Source: a virus
Taxonomy: Duplodnaviria; Caudoviricetes
Direction: 5' to 3' (one strand)
Virus record (IMG/VR): IMGVR_UViG_3300020469_000008
Location: 96,001 to 160,000 of that record
DNA length: 64,000 bases
The position numbers and the translations under genes were made by a program. Under the pieces are notes generated by a model. That model made no database searches, was not told the DNA's origin, and was given only the letters and a program-made list of their open reading frames with translations. Below, piece by piece: positions 7,511-56,161 of the stretch. Each line of letters begins with the position of its first letter. The first letter of the stretch is position 1.

Positions 7511-8413
7511 ATGAGATTATCGAAAAGCCAGTTAAGTCTAATTATTGAAAACTATTTATTAGAAAGCGTTAATACAGAATCTATACGTTCTGAATTTGAA
7601 AAAGCAAGAGATCAACTTAAACAAGAATTTTTAAATTCAGATAAATTTGATAAAGTTGTAAGGGCTAGTGTTGGTAAAGGTTTAGACATGACGCATCTTT
7701 ATGTAGTTCCAAAAGATGATCCAATCAATAAGAATCCTGAGTTTTCTGCTTATGAAGGTTATGCACTTCACGTAAAATTTGTAAGGGGTGAAGAAAGACC
7801 TAAAAAAGAATATTTTGATACGGACATAATAAAAGACAAAGAATTGGAAAGCAAGTTTAGTTCAAAGCCTATTGTAAATCCAATTGTTGTTATATTTGAA
7901 AAAAATATAAAATCAAAAATTAGCCTTAAGCGCTTATTACTTCATGAGCTCGGTCACGTAAAAAACAATTTTTTAAAGTTTTATGCCGGAATAGATTTGA
8001 ATGTTAATGAGGTTCGAGCGGTACTTCGAAAAGATTTTCAAGGAAAGTCTATCGGTAAAATTGTAAATATACTTAGATCTGAAAAGCGCTTAGGTAGAAT
8101 TAACCCACCAGGTTTTTTAAGGCTAGTAGAACGACTTAAAAAATATTATGATGGCGTTTTTGCAGATCCAGCAGATGAATTATCAGTTGACGAGTTTGCT
8201 GTTAGAATATCGGCTTTGCAAAGAGACATTGTTGCGCAAGCTTCAGTTTCACCCCGTGCTGAAGAAGTTATGTCATTTACAAAAATGGAACGTAAATATG
8301 GGATAGACGCAGCCGGCTTAGCACTATTTTTGGAAAAAAATGTTACATTTGAAAAGATACAAGCAGTGGCACAAAACATTAAAAAAAGTAACACAAAAAG
8401 TGCAACAGGGTAA
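7511..8413 (+). CDS. Leader-family protein with zinc metallopeptidase motif
   Basis: MRLSKSQLSLIIE leader; HELGH motif and downstream DEFAVR. Confidence 0.7.
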   Translation: MRLSKSQLSLIIENYLLESVNTESIRSEFEKARDQLKQEFLNSDKFDKVVRASVGKGLDMTHLYVVPKDDPINKNPEFSAYEGYALHVKFVRGEERPKKEYFDTDIIKDKELESKFSSKPIVNPIVVIFEKNIKSKISLKRLLLHELGHVKNNFLKFYAGIDLNVNEVRAVLRKDFQGKSIGKIVNILRSEKRLGRINPPGFLRLVERLKKYYDGVFADPADELSVDEFAVRISALQRDIVAQASVSPRAEEVMSFTKMERKYGIDAAGLALFLEKNVTFEKIQAVAQNIKKSNTKSATG

Positions 8414-8428
8414 AATATTGTGTATAAT
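8400..8428 (+). promoter_or_regulatory. Sigma70-like early promoter
   Basis: GTGCAA-17 bp-TATAAT with extended TG. Confidence 0.6.
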
Positions 8429-8473
8429 AATAATGTGGATAACACAACAAACTAAAACTAATCAGGAGAAAAA

Positions 8474-8707
8474 ATGTTACTATTAATTTTAAATTTGTCA
8501 ATCGCTTCAGCACAAGAAACAGATAAAAATGTTCGCTACAACAAAAGAACAGAAATTGATTTTGAAGGCTTAGATATTACAGGTGAAATGATAAAGCCGA
8601 CAGGTGCTCTAGTTCAGTCTAGACAAACTGCTAAGTTTAATCCGTTGATCAAGATTAGAACAGACTTTAACCTAGAAATGGCACAGTCTATAAACAACGT
8701 TAAATAA
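8474..8707 (+). CDS. CglF/GltF-like secreted gliding-motility protein homologue
   Basis: Signal peptide ending ASA-Q; NVRY.K.T.IDFE...I.G...KP.G..V..R....LI.IR.DF...QS pattern as recalled for myxobacterial CglF. Confidence 0.7.
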   Translation: MLLLILNLSIASAQETDKNVRYNKRTEIDFEGLDITGEMIKPTGALVQSRQTAKFNPLIKIRTDFNLEMAQSINNVK

Positions 8708-8730
8708 TTAGTTCTTTTCAAACAGCAAAT

Positions 8731-8757
8731 GGCAGCATAAAAAATGCTGCCTTTTTT
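8731..8757 (+). terminator. Rho-independent terminator
   Basis: GGCAGCAT/ATGCTGCC stem, 5-nt loop, T6. Confidence 0.85.
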
Positions 8758-10315: not shown

Positions 10316-11707
10316 ATGAAAATTACACGACGACAATTGAGACGACTATTAAGTGAAAGACTGTTAGTAGAAGCATCTGCTGAAGAATTAGCAAATATGA
10401 AGGGCACATATTCTATAAACCCACAGTCTGCGCAGTCACTAGGATTCGCCGGGGCTCAATCAGGCGCCGGACAAATAAAGGTCGGTCCTCGAGGCAACGT
10501 GAACGTTGGAACTAAGGATGGAAATTTTATCCGTGAAATCAAACCATCAGAAGTCACTCCGGAGCAACTAAATTACATAACACTCGGGTATGATAGAAAA
10601 CAAGCAGCAAATAATACCGTCATGGGGGAAATGAGCACTTATTTCAGAAAAAATGCAGGGTACTACAAGGTCAACAATCAATCCGGTGTACCTGCAGGAG
10701 CCACACACATTAGAATTTATGGTGATGCTAAATACCGATATATCAATTTCAATGAAAAACCAGAAAAATATGTAGGTGCCAAAGAACCAATTGCACCCTC
10801 TGTATTCCTCGGTTGGAAAAGCTTCATCGATGGTTTGACGAAAGACAGCAACCCGAGCAGTGCTGATACTTCCACTGAAGGTGAAACAGACACCAGCGCT
10901 GAAAGAGACGGTGAACAGCAACAACAACAGCAGCAACAACAGCAACCAAAACCAGAAAAGAAGAATAAACCAAAAAAATCAGCTGATAAAGATAAGAAAG
11001 TTGCTTTCATAAGAAAAGTTATTGGTGATGACGCTCCTGGCAAGTGGAACAAAGAATCAGATAAAAAGTGGAAAACTTGGGTCGAAGGGCCATACTACGC
11101 AGCAGGCGTACGCACATTTCAAAACTTTTATGCGATGGTGCAATTAGGTAAAAACAACAAAACTAATGCAACAGAAGAGGATTTTGATGCAGCTCACAAA
11201 GAAAACAACGCTGTCAGTTTAGCTAAATTAGCGGGATTCAAACCAACAATTTCAGGTGTCTACAACATGTGCAAAGAAATTGATGAAATGTCGAAAGAAG
11301 ATCTTCAAGCTACAGCAATGGCAATAACTGCTACTACTGAAGGAGAAACAAACACCGCGGCGAGCAAAGCAGTGGACAAAGATGAAGTAATAACTCAATC
11401 ATTTACCGACGATATTAAGGCTGAGATGTTTGGGGATGAAATTGCCAAAATTCAAGATCCAAGAGAAAAGTCTCGAGCAGTCAAAAACGTAGTAAACGCG
11501 TACAACAAGAAGAAAGAAGAATTAAAGAAAAAAGGCGACGAGAGGGAAATTCAAAATTTGGATAGAGGATTTAAGCTTTTTAAGAAAAGGTCTAAAGCTT
11601 CGAAAGAATTTGAAGCTGCATCTGAAAAGGTTGATGAAATAAAAGACCTGCAAGAATCGTTAAGCAGGGGCGCACTATATAGAAAGCATTACTACGGAAG
11701 ATACTAG
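10316..11707 (+). CDS. MKIT-leader family protein with poly-Gln tract
   Basis: MKITRRQLRRLLSE leader; Q10; C-terminal SRGALYRKHYYGRY. Confidence 0.85.
   Translation: MKITRRQLRRLLSERLLVEASAEELANMKGTYSINPQSAQSLGFAGAQSGAGQIKVGPRGNVNVGTKDGNFIREIKPSEVTPEQLNYITLGYDRKQAANNTVMGEMSTYFRKNAGYYKVNNQSGVPAGATHIRIYGDAKYRYINFNEKPEKYVGAKEPIAPSVFLGWKSFIDGLTKDSNPSSADTSTEGETDTSAERDGEQQQQQQQQQQPKPEKKNKPKKSADKDKKVAFIRKVIGDDAPGKWNKESDKKWKTWVEGPYYAAGVRTFQNFYAMVQLGKNNKTNATEEDFDAAHKENNAVSLAKLAGFKPTISGVYNMCKEIDEMSKEDLQATAMAITATTEGETNTAASKAVDKDEVITQSFTDDIKAEMFGDEIAKIQDPREKSRAVKNVVNAYNKKKEELKKKGDEREIQNLDRGFKLFKKRSKASKEFEAASEKVDEIKDLQESLSRGALYRKHYYGRY
10916..10945 (+). repeat. CAG/CAA poly-glutamine microsatellite (10 codons)
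   Basis: cagcaacaacaacagcagcaacaacagcaa. Confidence 0.9.
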
Positions 11708-12774
11708 ATCAATATTTTCTTCTTAAGTTTTTCAGATACAAGGTGTCTAAGAGTGAGCTCGTCAATACGAAACAACCTTCGTTCTTCTAGACCTCTTTGC
11801 TTTTTATCGTCTAGTTTAACTTCACGTCCAGTATCAGTAATTTTCTTTTCTTTAAATTCCATCTTCTTATCTGAAGTAATATCTTTAAGTTTCACACTGA
11901 GATCATCGTTGATTTCTTTACCTGAGATCGGCATAATAGCAGAAAGCTTTTTACCTTTTACCAGTTCAAACATAGCTGTTATTGTTTGACGTCCAACTTT
12001 GTAATCTTTTTGCAATCCATTTGCCTTCTGAAACTTACCAACAGCTTCTTTTGTTTTTGGGCCATAATCGCCATCGATATCATCGTCGGAATCTAAGTGT
12101 TTAAGTTGTACTAACGCTTTTTGTATTGCAGCTGTCATCATTTTATTTTCATTGTCTGATTTATTCATTGAAGTACTTAGAATTTTGTCACCTGACAATA
12201 CATCTTTAAAAAGTTCTTTTGCGCTAATCTCAAAGTCTCTGATTCCTTCTACACCGATAATTGTAATCATCCATTTAATTACATTGAATGTACCTTTTTC
12301 TGTTTCTTGCTTTACAACCTTAGGTTCTTTACCGCCAGGCTGTCGTTGTAACTTTGTACCATCAGCATCCGCGGCTGCTTTAAGTTTATCCTTACCTATT
12401 TTCTCTTCCGTATCTTTAACTTTTTGTGCACGATCGATACCTACGGAAACCTTAGCTTTTGATATGAATTGTTTTAGCTTTGACTTTATAACCTTTCTTT
12501 TGTCTTTATCAATTGCCATACCGAAGTAACTTAGAATTTTGTTATAAAAATCGATGTCTCCACTACTTAAGTTTCTATGCTTAGAACTTTTATTAAGTGC
12601 CGATTGTAATCCATCAAATAAGGACTTTGCTTTTTTGTTGAAATTTTGTTTTGATTCAGTTTGTGCTAGCGCAACTAGTCTTAGTATGATTGCATTTTTT
12701 ACGTCAAATTGTGCGTTTTTCATGCCAGGTTGCATGAAGGTTTTAATTGCTTGTCTGTCACCTCTTTTAAGCAT
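11704..12774 (-). CDS. Peptidoglycan-binding domain protein
   Basis: IQKALVQL..IDGDYGPKTKEAVGKFQKANGL..DYKVGRQT matches PG_binding_1. Confidence 0.8.
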   Translation of the reverse strand: MLKRGDRQAIKTFMQPGMKNAQFDVKNAIILRLVALAQTESKQNFNKKAKSLFDGLQSALNKSSKHRNLSSGDIDFYNKILSYFGMAIDKDKRKVIKSKLKQFISKAKVSVGIDRAQKVKDTEEKIGKDKLKAAADADGTKLQRQPGGKEPKVVKQETEKGTFNVIKWMITIIGVEGIRDFEISAKELFKDVLSGDKILSTSMNKSDNENKMMTAAIQKALVQLKHLDSDDDIDGDYGPKTKEAVGKFQKANGLQKDYKVGRQTITAMFELVKGKKLSAIMPISGKEINDDLSVKLKDITSDKKMEFKEKKITDTGREVKLDDKKQRGLEERRLFRIDELTLRHLVSEKLKKKILI

Positions 12775-15033: not shown

Positions 15034-15062
15034 GTGTAATCTTAAACTCCCTGTGTTATAAT
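15034..15062 (+). promoter_or_regulatory. Sigma70-like early promoter of dnaE
   Basis: GTGTAA-17 bp-TATAAT with TGTG extension. Confidence 0.65.
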
Positions 15063-35120: not shown

Positions 35121-35618
35121 ATGCAACAATATCGTGTTGGTCAGATTTTATTTTTAATAGCAGACGCTAGTAAAGTAGTACCTATTCAAGTTGTTGAAGA
35201 AGTAATTAGAACCACACTTGAGGGTAAAGAAAAAACATACATTGTTAAATTTCCTAATAAAGAAGCGACGACTGTTGATATTAAAAAAGTAAAAGGTGGT
35301 CTATTTAAATCAAAAAGTGAAGTCAAAAGTTACATGATTGAAAATGCAACCAGCGCAATCGAACAGATGGTTACATTAGCTGAGGAAATGTCAATTAATA
35401 TTTTTAACAGTCACCCTAATGATGTTACTTTACCTACACAATCACAAGACATAATGCAATTACAAACCGAAGATAATTTAGAAACCGAAGATAATTTAGA
35501 AACCGAAGAAAAAGTGCAACAGACTGACGATGATGGTATAATAAGAGTAGATCTTGGCAATGGAAAATATGGCAAAATCAACGTTGACAACCTTAATAAA
35601 GCAGGAGCACCCCAGTGA
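35121..35618 (+). CDS. Hypothetical protein
   Basis: AAGGAGG RBS. Confidence 0.75.
   Translation: MQQYRVGQILFLIADASKVVPIQVVEEVIRTTLEGKEKTYIVKFPNKEATTVDIKKVKGGLFKSKSEVKSYMIENATSAIEQMVTLAEEMSINIFNSHPNDVTLPTQSQDIMQLQTEDNLETEDNLETEEKVQQTDDDGIIRVDLGNGKYGKINVDNLNKAGAPQ
35464..35509 (+). repeat. 18-bp in-frame tandem repeat x2.5 (TEDNLE)
   Basis: aaaccgaagataatttag repeated. Confidence 0.85.
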
Positions 35619-36625: not shown

Positions 36626-38224
36626 ATGGAAATCAAACGCGAGATTTATTCTGGACAAGAGCTTGATGCAAAATTGCAAAAAGGCATTAATAAATTAGCT
36701 GACGCAGTAAAAGTTACAATGGGACCTAAAGGTAAACTTGTGTTAATACATAGGCCTGGACAACATCCTATCGTAACAAAAGATGGCGTCACAGTAGCAC
36801 AGGCTGTTAATTTAATTGACGAAGTTGAAAACTTGGGCGCACAAATTATAAAGGAATCAGCTAGTAGAACTGCAGATGAAGCAGGAGACGGCACCACAAC
36901 TGCAACAGTGTTAGCACAGTTTATCTACAATGAAGGTTTAAAATATAAAACTGCTGGATTTGATGTAATGCAAATAAAAGAAGGCATTGAATATGCGAGT
37001 AGTATATTAATAGAATCTGTAAGAAACACTGCAAGAGAAGTTAAGAGCAACGATGATCTGCTTAAAGTAGCAACTATATCTGCAAATGGTGAAGAAGATG
37101 TAGCAAAACTAATCGTCAATGCGATTGACGCAGCCGGCCCAGACGGTCATGTAATTGTTGAAGAAGCTAAGGGGTTTAGTAGCTCTTTACAGGTTGTTGA
37201 TGGATTTCAAATGGAGCGTGGATTTTTGTCTCCTTACTTTGTAACCGACAAAAACAAAATGACAGCAGAGTTCACAAAACCACTAATACTCATGGCTGAT
37301 AGAAATTTTAATTCTGTTCGTGAGCTTATGAAGCCACTAGAAGCTGCACTCGAAATGGGCCGGCCGATAGTTGTTATAGCCAACGAGATTGAAGGAGACG
37401 CCTTACAAGGTTTAGTTTTGAATAGAGTTAAAGGGTCTTTGCGAGTAGCTGGTATGAAGTCACCTGGATTTGGTGGCGCAAGGCATGATTTGCTTTTAGA
37501 TCTAGAGTCTATCGTTGGTGGCAAGGTTTTAGACAGCGCTTTTGATATGACTTCATTTGAACCTGAAATGTTCGGAACTTGCAAAAAGATGATTATTCAC
37601 AAAAGCAAAACGCTCGTAATTAAAGAGGAATCACGTTCTGATGCGACGCAAGCGAGAATGGATACAATTAAAGAGAAACTTAGATATCCCGGAATAAGTG
37701 ATAATGAGCGTGAACTTTTAAAATATCGTATCCAACAGTTATCTGGGGGCATCGCAATTTTACGAGTAGGTGCAGCAACAGAATCGGAATTAATTGAACG
37801 ATATGATCGAGTTGATGATGCTTTGCATGCAACTCGTGCTGCACTGGAAGAAGGTGTATTACCTGGTGGCGGAATTGCTTTGCATCGTTTAACGAATGAT
37901 TTGGATCAATGTGACGTTTCTAGACAATCTAAAAGTTTCATTGCGGGTTTTAGGCTCTTAACAGATGCGTGCTTAGCACCATTTAAACAAATCTTAGAAA
38001 ATGCTGGGTTGTCACATCATAAAGTTTTAAATGAGTTAAAAGAAACAGAGAATAATTTTGGCTATGATGTTCGTCACAAGAAGTTTGGGGATATGTTTGA
38101 ACTAGGTGTACTTGATCCCGCAAAGGTTTCCCGATGTGCTGTTGAGAATGCTGTGTCTGCTGCAACTATGTTGTTAATGGCTGACTGTTCAATGATTGAA
38201 GTAAATACCGAAGTTAAAGAATAG
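36626..38224 (+). CDS. groEL: Group I chaperonin GroEL homologue
   Basis: VKVTMGPKG, TKDGVTVA, AGDGTTTATVLA, GGIA, EEGVLPGGG, DPAKV; no GGM tail. Confidence 0.95.
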   Translation: MEIKREIYSGQELDAKLQKGINKLADAVKVTMGPKGKLVLIHRPGQHPIVTKDGVTVAQAVNLIDEVENLGAQIIKESASRTADEAGDGTTTATVLAQFIYNEGLKYKTAGFDVMQIKEGIEYASSILIESVRNTAREVKSNDDLLKVATISANGEEDVAKLIVNAIDAAGPDGHVIVEEAKGFSSSLQVVDGFQMERGFLSPYFVTDKNKMTAEFTKPLILMADRNFNSVRELMKPLEAALEMGRPIVVIANEIEGDALQGLVLNRVKGSLRVAGMKSPGFGGARHDLLLDLESIVGGKVLDSAFDMTSFEPEMFGTCKKMIIHKSKTLVIKEESRSDATQARMDTIKEKLRYPGISDNERELLKYRIQQLSGGIAILRVGAATESELIERYDRVDDALHATRAALEEGVLPGGGIALHRLTNDLDQCDVSRQSKSFIAGFRLLTDACLAPFKQILENAGLSHHKVLNELKETENNFGYDVRHKKFGDMFELGVLDPAKVSRCAVENAVSAATMLLMADCSMIEVNTEVKE

Positions 38225-39128: not shown

Positions 39129-39168
39129 TTGCGCGCAGAGTGTAACCTGCGCGCAATTATAGTATAAT
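39129..39168 (+). promoter_or_regulatory. Promoter of sigma gene with a perfect 10-bp inverted repeat flanking the -35 box
   Basis: TTGCGCGCAG-agtgtaac-CTGCGCGCAA; GTGTAA-17 bp-TATAAT. Confidence 0.65.
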
Positions 39169-55824: not shown

Positions 55825-56161
55825 GGGCCCGTAATGGTTTCGACGGGGTAGAATCAAGGGGAGAGTGCAAGTAGGGAAGATACGCCCTTAACAGTTCAAA
55901 CATAATAGTTGCAAACAATAACAACTTTTACGACGTAGCTTTAGCTGCATAATCGTGGTGGTCGTCTCAAACCATCTAACCAAGAGAGGCTTTAGCAGTT
56001 GGAACTGCCGAGAAATAAAATGACAACAGTCCTCACTCGGTCACGGAGAGGCGAACAATACAGTGACTATCCTGTTAATCGGAGAAATGATTAGATAAGC
56101 TTGTGAATGACTCAAACTAAGACTATTGCGGACAGGGGTTCGACTCCCCTCGGGTCCACCA
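55825..56161 (+). ncRNA. ssrA: tmRNA; tag peptide ANNNNFYDVALAA (55911-55952)
   Basis: Acceptor stem GGGCCCG/CGGGTCC with G3:U wobble, encoded ACCA end, T-arm GGGGTTCGACTCCCC, TTCGAC near 5' end, resume codon GCA, tag ending ALAA. Confidence 0.95.

What the first reader, a model, noticed from the sequence alone, without database searches (positions are those of the whole stretch)
8400..8757. Phage-borne CglF/GltF-like gliding-motility protein as its own transcription unit
The 77-aa secreted protein matches, as recalled, the myxobacterial CglF pattern along its full mature length. It has its own sigma70-like promoter, AGGAG RBS and terminator, like a moron. Known: CglF is an envelope component of the Agl-Glt gliding machinery in Myxococcota, with relatives in Bdellovibrionota. 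Inference: the host is a gliding predatory bacterium, and the phage may alter motility, mask a receptor for superinfection exclusion, or spread through outer-membrane exchange. I am not aware of such a phage gene being described.
Basis: partly seen in the sequence, partly recalled or inferred. Interest (0 to 1): 0.8.

Follow-up and report, generated by a model that had tools for sequence, protein, structure and literature searches.

The report
Phage-borne gliding-machine linker protein GltF
An uncultured marine giant phage, like more than a hundred other phage contigs, carries a stand-alone, well-conserved copy of GltF/CglF, a small periplasmic linker of the myxobacterial gliding machine; I found no paper describing such a phage gene, and it points to marine Myxococcota as likely hosts.

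Summary
ORF 8474-8707 (77 aa) has an AGGAG ribosome site, a strong terminator (8731-8757) and a promoter-like site (8400-8428). That site belongs to a phage-specific class, GTGYAAY-N16-TATAAT, not a classic sigma-70 promoter. The protein matches NCBIfam CglF (NF033764, E 2e-16, 59.9 bits). This is under the 90-bit cut-off, but genuine cglF genes inside glt clusters of marine Myxococcota MAGs score lower still (52.6-58). The record is a real phage of 202 kb with portal, major head and baseplate genes.

The gene is not a one-off. At least 114 IMG/VR contigs carry a relative. None of 88 viral loci had Glt neighbours, whereas all 92 bacterial loci did. Phage copies are under purifying selection (median dN/dS 0.15), keep every residue that is invariant in bacteria, and have very short leader peptides.

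My reading: an exported, working GltF homologue that plugs into the host's Glt-type envelope machine. It either keeps the machine running during infection (favoured) or uncouples it. The host is unproven. The closest cellular copies (62-64% identity) lie in 45-50% GC marine Myxococcota.

First readers of this scan noted the same thing on at least four other genomes; none had been followed up. I found no paper describing it.

The parts
8400..8406 (+). -35-like box GTGCAAC of the phage promoter class GTGYAAY-N16-TATAAT; it lies in the last codons of the upstream gene
   Evidence: 12 sites on the + strand, 0 on the - strand, 0.8 expected; the box is kept as GTGTAAC in relatives L006-L008.
8423..8428 (+). 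-10 box TATAAT, 45 nt before the start codon
   Evidence: It is invariant between the window and the 79%-identical relatives, while the 16-nt spacer differs.
8464..8468 (+). Shine-Dalgarno AGGAG, 5 nt before the ATG
   Evidence: conserved in L006-L008. Of about 230 crude gene calls in the genome, 62% have such a core, against 8% at random positions.
8474..8707 (+). Coding sequence of the 77-aa GltF/CglF homologue, stop codon included
   Evidence: dN/dS against relative L008 is 0.077.
8474..8512 (+). Minimal leader peptide, residues 1-13: hydrophobic core, then A-S-A before Q14. It has no basic residue.
   Evidence: Read from the sequence. One search compares leaders: phage 12-15 aa, bacteria 25-31 aa, with Lys/Arg in 99% of the bacterial ones. 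predicts a helix at residues 2-10. Export and cleavage are inferred.
8537..8611 (+). Conserved extended block, residues 22-46 (Y, TEIDFE, G, KP, L). By offset from the M. xanthus model it corresponds to the GltF strand that pairs with the TonB-like C-terminal domain of GltG.
   Evidence: Invariant columns. The mapping to PMC11761067 is my inference from the colinear profile alignment.
8636..8704 (+). FNPLI-R motif and C-terminal helix, residues 55-77. They correspond to the GltF C-terminal helix that is predicted to sit in a GltC crevice.
   Evidence: AlphaFold2 predicts a helix at 65-74 (low confidence). The partner assignment comes from PMC11761067 and is inferred.
8731..8757 (+). Intrinsic terminator: 8-bp G+C-rich stem, 5-nt loop, T6
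   Evidence: Relatives have a hairpin of different sequence at the same position.

Best explanation
The gene encodes an exported, functional homologue of GltF/CglF. GltF is the small, largely disordered periplasmic linker of the Agl-Glt (and Nfs-type) trans-envelope machine of Myxococcota. The gene was taken from such a host and is kept as a stand-alone gene in a large group of marine and aquatic jumbo phages.

It is transcribed from a phage-specific promoter of the same class that precedes the DNA polymerase gene, so I infer early or middle expression. It ends at its own terminator.

I infer that after export its conserved extended block binds the TonB-like C-terminal domain of the host's GltG, and that its C-terminal helix binds GltC, as modelled for M. 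xanthus GltF.

My favoured purpose is supply. Once host gene expression is shut off, the phage copy replaces a short-lived linker subunit. This keeps the host's surface machine, and so its movement, adhesion or feeding, running during a long jumbo-phage infection. The parallel is the supply of the labile D1 subunit by cyanophage psbA.

What is shown: homology, phage location, solo status, purifying selection and the transcription signals. What is inferred: export, binding partners, timing, purpose and host.
For: Homology:
- NF033764 gives E 1.9e-16 over the whole mature part.
- The phage protein is 54-64% identical to bacterial proteins that sit between gltE and gltG.
- The neighbours of those bacterial proteins match GltG (E 5e-69), CglE/GltH (97.7 bits, above its cut-off of 70), GltE and GltC.
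- The in-cluster orthologues score only 52.6-58 bits on the same model.

Phage identity: portal, major head and baseplate wedge genes; GroEL and an endolysin-like gene.

Solo and widespread:
- 114 IMG/VR contigs carry a relative.
- 0 of 88 viral loci had a Glt neighbour, against 92 of 92 bacterial loci.
- No other Glt gene was found in the 202-kb genome.
- The nearest ESM Atlas clusters are all viral.
- 5 of 6 near-complete carriers share the window phage's capsid type. Two other phage contexts also carry the gene.

Functional constraint:
- Median dN/dS is 0.15 over 61 phage pairs.
- Every column invariant in bacteria is kept in the window protein, and no class-specific non-conservative changes were seen.

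Shape: a disordered chain with a C-terminal helix, as described for GltF (PMC11761067).

Role of GltF: it is required for gliding, is envelope-located and sits at focal adhesions (PMC3169522). It is modelled as a bridge joining GltC to GltG and GltD.

Transcription unit.
Against: - Nothing here shows that the protein is made, exported or bound to anything. The complex prediction gave no verdict, and RNA-run contigs covered the flanking genes but not this one.
- The conservation pattern does not separate supply from jamming.
- The leader is unusually short and lacks a basic residue, so export efficiency is uncertain.
- Some positions that are invariant in bacteria (E38, M69, P57, L58) vary among phage copies, which could mean that one contact has been relaxed.
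- The host is unknown. The nearest cultured capsid relatives infect Flavobacterium, Microcystis and Rhodothermus at 35-45% identity, and these phyla have no Glt machine.
- Phage GC (36%) is below that of all Glt-bearing loci seen (45-70%).
- A CglF-like 50-aa segment also occurs inside large unrelated proteins outside glt clusters. The motif may therefore have partners other than Glt.
Confidence: 0.45

Rival explanations
1. Dominant-negative uncoupler. Made in excess, the phage linker saturates GltG and GltC separately and disconnects the inner-membrane motor from the outer-membrane platform. This freezes gliding or changes surface exposure of the adhesin and platform. The gain would be to block superinfection, to stop progeny adsorbing to infected cells, or to keep the infected cell in place.
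For: - GltF is modelled as a two-ended bridge (PMC11761067), and excess of such an adaptor is expected to uncouple its partners (inference).
- The gene stands alone behind its own promoter.
- The leader is altered, and constraint is relaxed at some positions that are invariant in bacteria.
- From my own knowledge: known phage genes aimed at host motility organelles are inhibitors, such as Tip and Aqs1 against type IV pili.
Against: - Both binding blocks are as well kept as in cellular copies, with no inhibitor-like change.
- Known motility-blocking phage proteins are not homologues of machine subunits.
- No receptor information is available.
Confidence: 0.3
2. The host has no Glt machine. The conserved roughly 50-aa motif would be a general docking peptide for a TonB-C-like or other periplasmic domain, and the phage would use it on a different target, for example a TonB/TolA-type system in a Gram-negative marine host.
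For: - CglF-like segments occur inside VIT-vWA 'sortase target'-like proteins and in a 971-aa protein, both outside glt clusters.
- The nearest cultured capsid relatives infect phyla without Glt.
- Phage GC is below that of all Glt-bearing loci seen.
Against: - The phage protein is a full-length, colinear match to stand-alone GltF. Every one of its nearest cellular relatives lies in a glt cluster, and they are 62-64% identical.
- Shine-Dalgarno use of 62% argues against a Bacteroidota host; that Bacteroidota rarely use such sites is established knowledge.
- T4 itself is about 15 GC points below E. coli, so the GC gap is weak evidence (my knowledge).
- The tmRNA tag resembles those of three Glt-bearing genomes; this is also weak.
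Confidence: 0.12
3. A decaying passenger gene or a chance ORF with no function in the phage.
For: No expression evidence was found. The gene is small.
Against: - dN/dS is 0.08-0.15.
- Synteny is conserved across diverged phages.
- There are 114 viral contigs, and start, ribosome site, promoter boxes and terminator are conserved.
Confidence: 0.02

Closest known systems
GltF = CglF of Myxococcus xanthus (MXAN_4868; NCBIfam NF033764), periplasmic component of the Agl-Glt gliding / bacterial focal-adhesion machine; paralogue NfsF of the sporulation machine
   Same: Small exported protein. The match is colinear over the whole mature length and all family-invariant residues are present. The predicted shape, a disordered chain with a C-terminal helix, is the same (PMC11761067).
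   Different: It is encoded by a phage as a solo gene, with no gltD/E/G/H neighbours. The leader is cut down to 13 residues with no basic residue. The score is under the equivalog cut-off. Whether it acts in gliding, in an Nfs-like process or against the machine is unknown.
In-cluster GltF orthologues of uncultured marine Myxococcota MAGs (loci L011/L012, L175, L002-L005)
   Same: 54-64% identity. These are the nearest cellular relatives, and they score similarly or lower on NF033764.
   Different: They are chromosomal and always sit between gltE and gltG. Their signal peptides are 25-31 residues long with Lys/Arg. GC is 45-64%, against 36% for the phage.
Cyanophage psbA (D1) and similar auxiliary genes that supply one labile subunit of a host complex
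   Same: A single subunit of a multi-protein host machine, carried alone by many phages and under purifying selection. This is an analogy drawn from my own knowledge.
   Different: The machine is a different kind (an envelope motor, not a photosystem). Lability of GltF is only inferred from its predicted disorder.
Phage inhibitors of host motility organelles (Pseudomonas phage Tip of D3112, Aqs1 of DMS3, acting on the type IV pilus ATPase PilB)
   Same: Phage genes, each with its own expression signals, aimed at a surface motility apparatus. They are used for superinfection exclusion (my knowledge).
   Different: Those are unrelated small inhibitors, not homologues of a machine subunit, and they act in the cytoplasm.

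Membership tests
CglF/GltF (NCBIfam NF033764, equivalog) | Profile score at or above the curated cut-off of 90 bits | tested here: not met
   The score is 59.9 bits, E 1.9e-16. As a control, bona fide gltF genes inside glt clusters of marine Myxococcota score 52.6, 55.7 and 58 bits. The cut-off therefore fits only close kin of Myxococcus. The protein is a homologue, not an NCBI 'equivalog'.
CglF/GltF | Colinear full-length similarity with the family's invariant residues | tested here: met
   Residues 11-75 align to profile positions 23-87 of 88 without net indels. Y22, D29, F30, G37, P42, F55-N-P-L58, E68 and S72 are invariant across 22 phage and bacterial sequences. Per-column comparison of 66 viral and 78 bacterial sequences agrees.
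CglF/GltF | Small protein (about 75-95 aa) with a type I signal peptide, exported to the envelope | tested here: inconclusive
   Size is 77 aa. A hydrophobic leader ends in A-S-A before Q, aligned with the bacterial A-x-A before Q. The leader is only 13 aa and has no Lys or Arg. Export was not tested. The type I signal of CglF is stated in PMC3325183.
CglF/GltF | Gene lies in a glt/nfs cluster between gltE and gltG | tested here: not met
   0 of 88 viral loci, and the window's own genome, have GltC/D/E/G/H homologues. All 92 bacterial loci do.
CglF/GltF | Largely disordered chain with a C-terminal helix, as in the M. xanthus model | tested here: met
   The AlphaFold2 model has mean pLDDT 62.7, is coil except for the leader helix at 2-10 and a helix at 65-74. 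The description of GltF is in PMC11761067. Low confidence.
CglF/GltF | Binds the GltG C-terminal domain and GltC; required for gliding; localises to focal adhesions | tested here: inconclusive
   The complex prediction with the GltG C-terminal domain of L011 gave no verdict. Function and localisation cannot be tested with these tools.
Phage moron / auxiliary gene | Host-derived gene in a phage with its own promoter and terminator, not needed for virion or replication functions | tested here: met
   Promoter class, terminator and nearest relatives being cellular glt genes. Dispensability was not tested.

The most novel reading that the evidence does not exclude
A cosmopolitan group of uncultured 185-290 kb marine and freshwater jumbo phages infects planktonic or particle-attached Myxococcota, for which I know of no described phages. 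These phages take control of the host's focal-adhesion gliding motor through a single captured linker subunit. That would make gltF both the first phage-encoded part of a bacterial gliding machine and a marker gene for assigning these phages to hosts.
Probability: 0.35. Interest if true: 0.75.

Novelty: new variant of a known kind. Interest (0 to 1): 0.6.

Why it matters
- **Host clue.** GltF is a component whose place in the gliding machine rests so far on genetics and a structural model. That over a hundred phages keep exactly this one subunit singles it out as a control point or weak point of the machine, and it supplies a natural set of variants to test that. It also gives a testable host clue for a widespread, uncultured group of marine jumbo phages. 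The same phage DNA is in seawater and virome data of at least ten studies, and these phages have no known host.
- **New class of auxiliary gene.** If the host is confirmed, this would extend phage auxiliary genes from metabolism to a trans-envelope motility motor.
- **Phages of marine Myxococcota.** It would also open up the study of phages of marine Myxococcota.

Tried and rejected
- **Family and database searches with no result.** Pfam and PHROGs found no family for the 77-aa protein. GenBank phages (INPHARED) gave no tblastn match, so no deposited cultured phage has it.
- **Binding.** The complex prediction of the mature phage protein with the C-terminal 137 residues of GltG from locus L011 scored 0.25, under the mark. 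That is no verdict either way.
- **Expression.** Contigs of four RNA-labelled marine runs cover the flanking genes but not 8474-8707. Contigs cannot show absence.
- **Host from a MYXO-CTERM-like tail.** Its tail reads GCS, a hydrophobic stretch, then RRK, but TIGR03901 gave no match in the genome or on the tail alone. I dropped it as a host clue.
- **Host from capsid relatives.** The nearest are Flavobacterium, Microcystis and Rhodothermus phages at only 35-45% identity. This is too distant to assign a host, and the phage's heavy Shine-Dalgarno use argues against Bacteroidota.
- **Number of transfers.** The 70-column tree needs 7 label changes. However, the AU test does not reject a single viral clade (p 0.74), and the constrained tree was in fact better. 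I make no claim about repeated transfer or its direction.
- **Taxon names.** Genome handles show no names, and submitters' labels on MAGs are often plainly wrong, for example 'Klebsiella' on 60-67% GC contigs with glt clusters.
- **Literature.** Pathak and Wall 2012 (PMC3318471) is not held in the library.

Full report
**What is there.** The window is bases 96001-160000 of a 202,054-base IMG/VR virus record, which CheckV estimates as 70% complete. GC is 36.6% and almost all genes lie on the + strand. The record is a real tailed phage. It encodes a portal protein (phrog_213, E 3e-74), a major head protein (phrog_138, E 3e-75), a baseplate wedge subunit and an SbcC-like nuclease. Inside the window it also encodes a DnaE-like polymerase, GroEL, an endolysin-like protein, ThyX and a nucleoside deoxyribosyltransferase.

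**The gene and its signals.** ORF 8474-8707 encodes 77 aa. AGGAG at 8464-8468 lies 5 nt before the ATG.

The terminator is an 8-bp G+C-rich hairpin at 8731-8751 followed by T6. It folds at -16.2 kcal/mol, z = -3.6. In relatives whose protein is 79% identical, a hairpin plus T-run of different sequence sits at the same place. That is how a real terminator behaves.

The generic sigma-70 scan gave only a weak site. The perfect TATAAT at 8423-8428 is instead preceded, after 16 nt, by GTGCAAC at 8400-8406. The pattern GTGYAAY-N16-TATAAT occurs 12 times on the + strand of the genome and never on the - strand, with 0.8 expected from shuffles. Most copies lie 17-45 nt before a gene, including the DNA polymerase gene. 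Both boxes are kept in the relative while the spacer is not.

The gene therefore has a promoter of a recurrent, phage-specific class. I infer early or middle expression from its use before replication genes. Read-through from the upstream 300-aa gene is not excluded, because no terminator separates the two.

**Is it CglF/GltF?** NCBIfam NF033764 (gliding_CglF) matches residues 11-75 to profile positions 23-87 of 88, with E 1.9e-16 and 59.9 bits. This is under the 90-bit equivalog cut-off. The control matters here. Bacterial homologues that sit between gltE and gltG score only 52.6, 55.7 and 58 bits. Their neighbours match GltG (E 5e-69), CglE/GltH (97.7 bits, above its cut-off), GltE and GltC. 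The phage protein is thus as CglF-like as real in-cluster orthologues of marine Myxococcota.

A search of 5.8 billion proteins gave 87 relatives. A search of 1.8 billion cluster representatives gave 495 at E <= 0.001. The alignment is colinear, with Y22, D29, F30, G37, P42, FNPL55-58, E68 and S72 invariant.

**Two kinds of context.**
- *Phage contigs.* Close relatives (75-92% identity, 77 aa) lie on marine phage contigs with the same gene order: NT5C-like, 300-aa gene, this gene, thyX, deoxyribosyltransferase. A 74-aa group lies in a more diverged phage with a similar order. A further 77-aa group lies in a different phage-like context.
- *Bacterial chromosomes.* Copies of 82-91 aa (54-64% identity) lie in the order beta-barrel OMP, GltC, GltD, GltE, GltF, GltG, GltH.

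Scans found 147 matches in species-representative genomes and 114 in IMG/VR. I ran tblastn with GltC/D/E/G/H against all fetched loci. All 92 bacterial loci have Glt neighbours and none of the 88 viral loci has one. The window's own genome has no other Glt gene and only one CglF-like gene. The nearest ESM Atlas clusters, of 98, 73 and 56 members, are all viral.

**Which phages carry it.**
- Of six near-complete carrier records, five (185-290 kb) have a major head protein 47-76% identical to this phage's.
- A 316-kb record carries the gene beside a different terminase and portal.
- A 56% GC group carries it beside T4-type topoisomerase II and tail-fibre genes.

The gene is thus common in one large jumbo-phage group and is present in at least two other phage contexts.

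**Is it functional?** Over the last 62 codons, 61 phage pairs give a median dN/dS of 0.15 (interquartile range 0.11-0.19). The window against L008 gives 0.077. Bacterial pairs give 0.25. Column by column, both conserved blocks are kept in phages, and the only class-specific changes are conservative (D/E, V/I). A few columns that are strictly invariant in bacteria (E38, P57, L58, M69) do vary among phages.

The clearest systematic difference is the leader. Phage copies have 12-15 residues, and those of the window's group lack Lys and Arg. Bacterial copies have 25-31 residues, 99% of them with Lys or Arg. Both end in A-x-A before Q-D/E.

AlphaFold2 with the alignment gives a low-confidence model (pLDDT 62.7). 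It is coil apart from the leader helix and a helix at 65-74.

**What GltF does (from papers).** gltF (MXAN_4868, 89 aa, signal peptide) is required for gliding. A functional GltF-mCherry fusion is in the envelope and at focal adhesion clusters, and GltD clusters depend on GltF. In 2011 the gene was found only in Myxococcales and Bdellovibrionales (PMC3169522). CglF is GltF (PMC4488436), and it has a type I signal sequence (PMC3325183).

A 2025 AlphaFold model describes GltF as largely disordered. It acts as a bridge. Its C-terminal helix sits in a crevice of GltC on the outer-membrane side. A beta-strand pairs with the TonB-like C-terminal domain of GltG, and the chain touches GltD on the way (PMC11761067).

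By offset from the shared C-terminus and the colinear profile alignment, that strand corresponds to phage residues 24-41, the most conserved block. The helix corresponds to residues 63-77. This mapping is my inference.

**Mechanism.** The phage protein keeps both presumed contact elements, so I read it as a working linker that enters the host's Glt-type machine.

I favour supply at about 45%. Phages typically carry the one subunit of a host complex that limits function once host expression stops, and a disordered periplasmic peptide is a plausible short-lived part. Jamming by excess linker, possibly for superinfection exclusion, gets about 30%. It predicts the same conservation and cannot be separated from supply here. 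A non-Glt target gets about 12%. It is kept alive by CglF-like segments inside large unrelated proteins outside glt clusters: VIT-vWA 'sortase-target'-like proteins and a 971-aa protein.

**Host.** No direct link was found.

*In favour of Myxococcota:*
- All nearest cellular copies lie in glt clusters.
- The closest ones (62-64% identity) come from 45-50% GC marine genomes. The IMP dehydrogenase encoded beside one of them has its named relatives mostly in 'Myxococcota bacterium'.
- In the tree, the low-GC bacterial copies sit among the viral ones. Shared amino-acid bias could cause this.
- The phage tmRNA tag begins ANNN and ends ALAA. The tags of three Glt-bearing genomes read ANNN..FA(L/V)AA. 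This is weak, because I had no outgroup.

*Against, or neutral:*
- The capsid's nearest cultured relatives infect Flavobacterium, Microcystis and Rhodothermus at 35-45% identity.
- Phage GC is 9 or more points below any Glt-bearing locus seen.
- The phage uses Shine-Dalgarno sites at 62% of genes, which argues against Bacteroidota.
- The AU test does not reject one origin of all viral copies, so repeated phage-host exchange cannot be claimed.

**Novelty.** Full-text searches for CglF or GltF with phage, and for gliding motility with auxiliary phage genes, found no description. No GenBank phage record has the gene. First readers of this scan noted the same kind of gene on at least four other genomes, without follow-up.

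I class it as a new variant of a known kind: a known protein family in a new setting, namely a solo copy with a cut-down leader that is widespread in phages.

**Environment.** The same DNA is held by seawater and viral metagenomes of at least ten studies beyond the possible source samples. One relative comes from a Tara surface 0.1-0.22 µm fraction.

Noticed in passing
window 8400-8428, 15034-15062, 35514-35542, 39140-39168, and eight more sites in the genome: Phage-specific promoter-like motif (A-rich)-GTGYAAY-N16-TATAAT-AA. It occurs 12 times on the + strand and 0 times on the - strand, with 0.8 expected, and mostly lies 17-45 nt before genes, including the DnaE-like polymerase gene. The -35-like box is unlike TTGACA. 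It may need a phage factor, as T4 middle promoters do.
   Followed up: partly
window 55825-56161 (+): Phage-encoded one-piece tmRNA (Rfam RF00023, 108.7 bits) with tag ANNNNFYDVALAA. Three Glt-bearing bacterial genomes have tags ANNNKHFALAA, ANNNEGFALAA and ANNNAHFAVAA. This is a possible but weak host clue, because no outgroup was compared.
   Followed up: partly
window 36626-38224 (+): Phage GroEL (NF000592, 562 bits). It has a very large radiation of unnamed metagenomic relatives at 58-92% identity, apparently phage-borne.
   Followed up: partly
proteins P0199, P0218, P0134, P0187, P0236; loci L194 and L195: A CglF-like segment of about 50 aa (NF033764, E 1e-6 to 1e-10) is embedded near the C-terminus of large proteins outside glt clusters. 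Examples are VIT-vWA proteins that match 'marine proteobacterial sortase target' and a 971-aa protein next to DUF1501/PSCyt2-type genes. The motif may be a reusable docking peptide.
   Followed up: partly
genome 172195-173391 (L186:12195-13391), beyond the window: A 398-aa exported protein ends in GCS, a hydrophobic stretch, then RRKQ, which looks like a sorting tag. The MYXO-CTERM model TIGR03901 does not match it. The only hit is a faint one to Synerg-CTERM (E 0.12).
   Followed up: yes
L031 (bacterial, 46.6% GC) against viral loci L098, L117, L118, L120, L124 and others: One bacterial in-cluster GltF sits inside a viral clade with 97% SH-aLRT support. This could be transfer in either direction or compositional attraction. 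The alignment has only 70 columns.
   Followed up: no
L133 (IMG/VR record classed 'provirus', 50.7% GC) and L132, L163, L170 (53-56% GC): A higher-GC group of CglF-carrying viral contigs. One is flagged as a provirus, and L132 lies beside T4-type topoisomerase II and tail-fibre genes. Host flanks of the provirus could name a host.
   Followed up: no
window 7511-8413 (+): The upstream 300-aa gene begins with the basic amphipathic leader (MRLSKSQLSLII..E) that earlier notes of this scan describe on about 20 genes of this phage. No family matched it. No terminator separates it from the GltF-like gene.
   Followed up: no
window 11704-12774 (-): One of the few minus-strand genes. It is endolysin-like and carries a peptidoglycan-binding-type repeat.
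   Followed up: no
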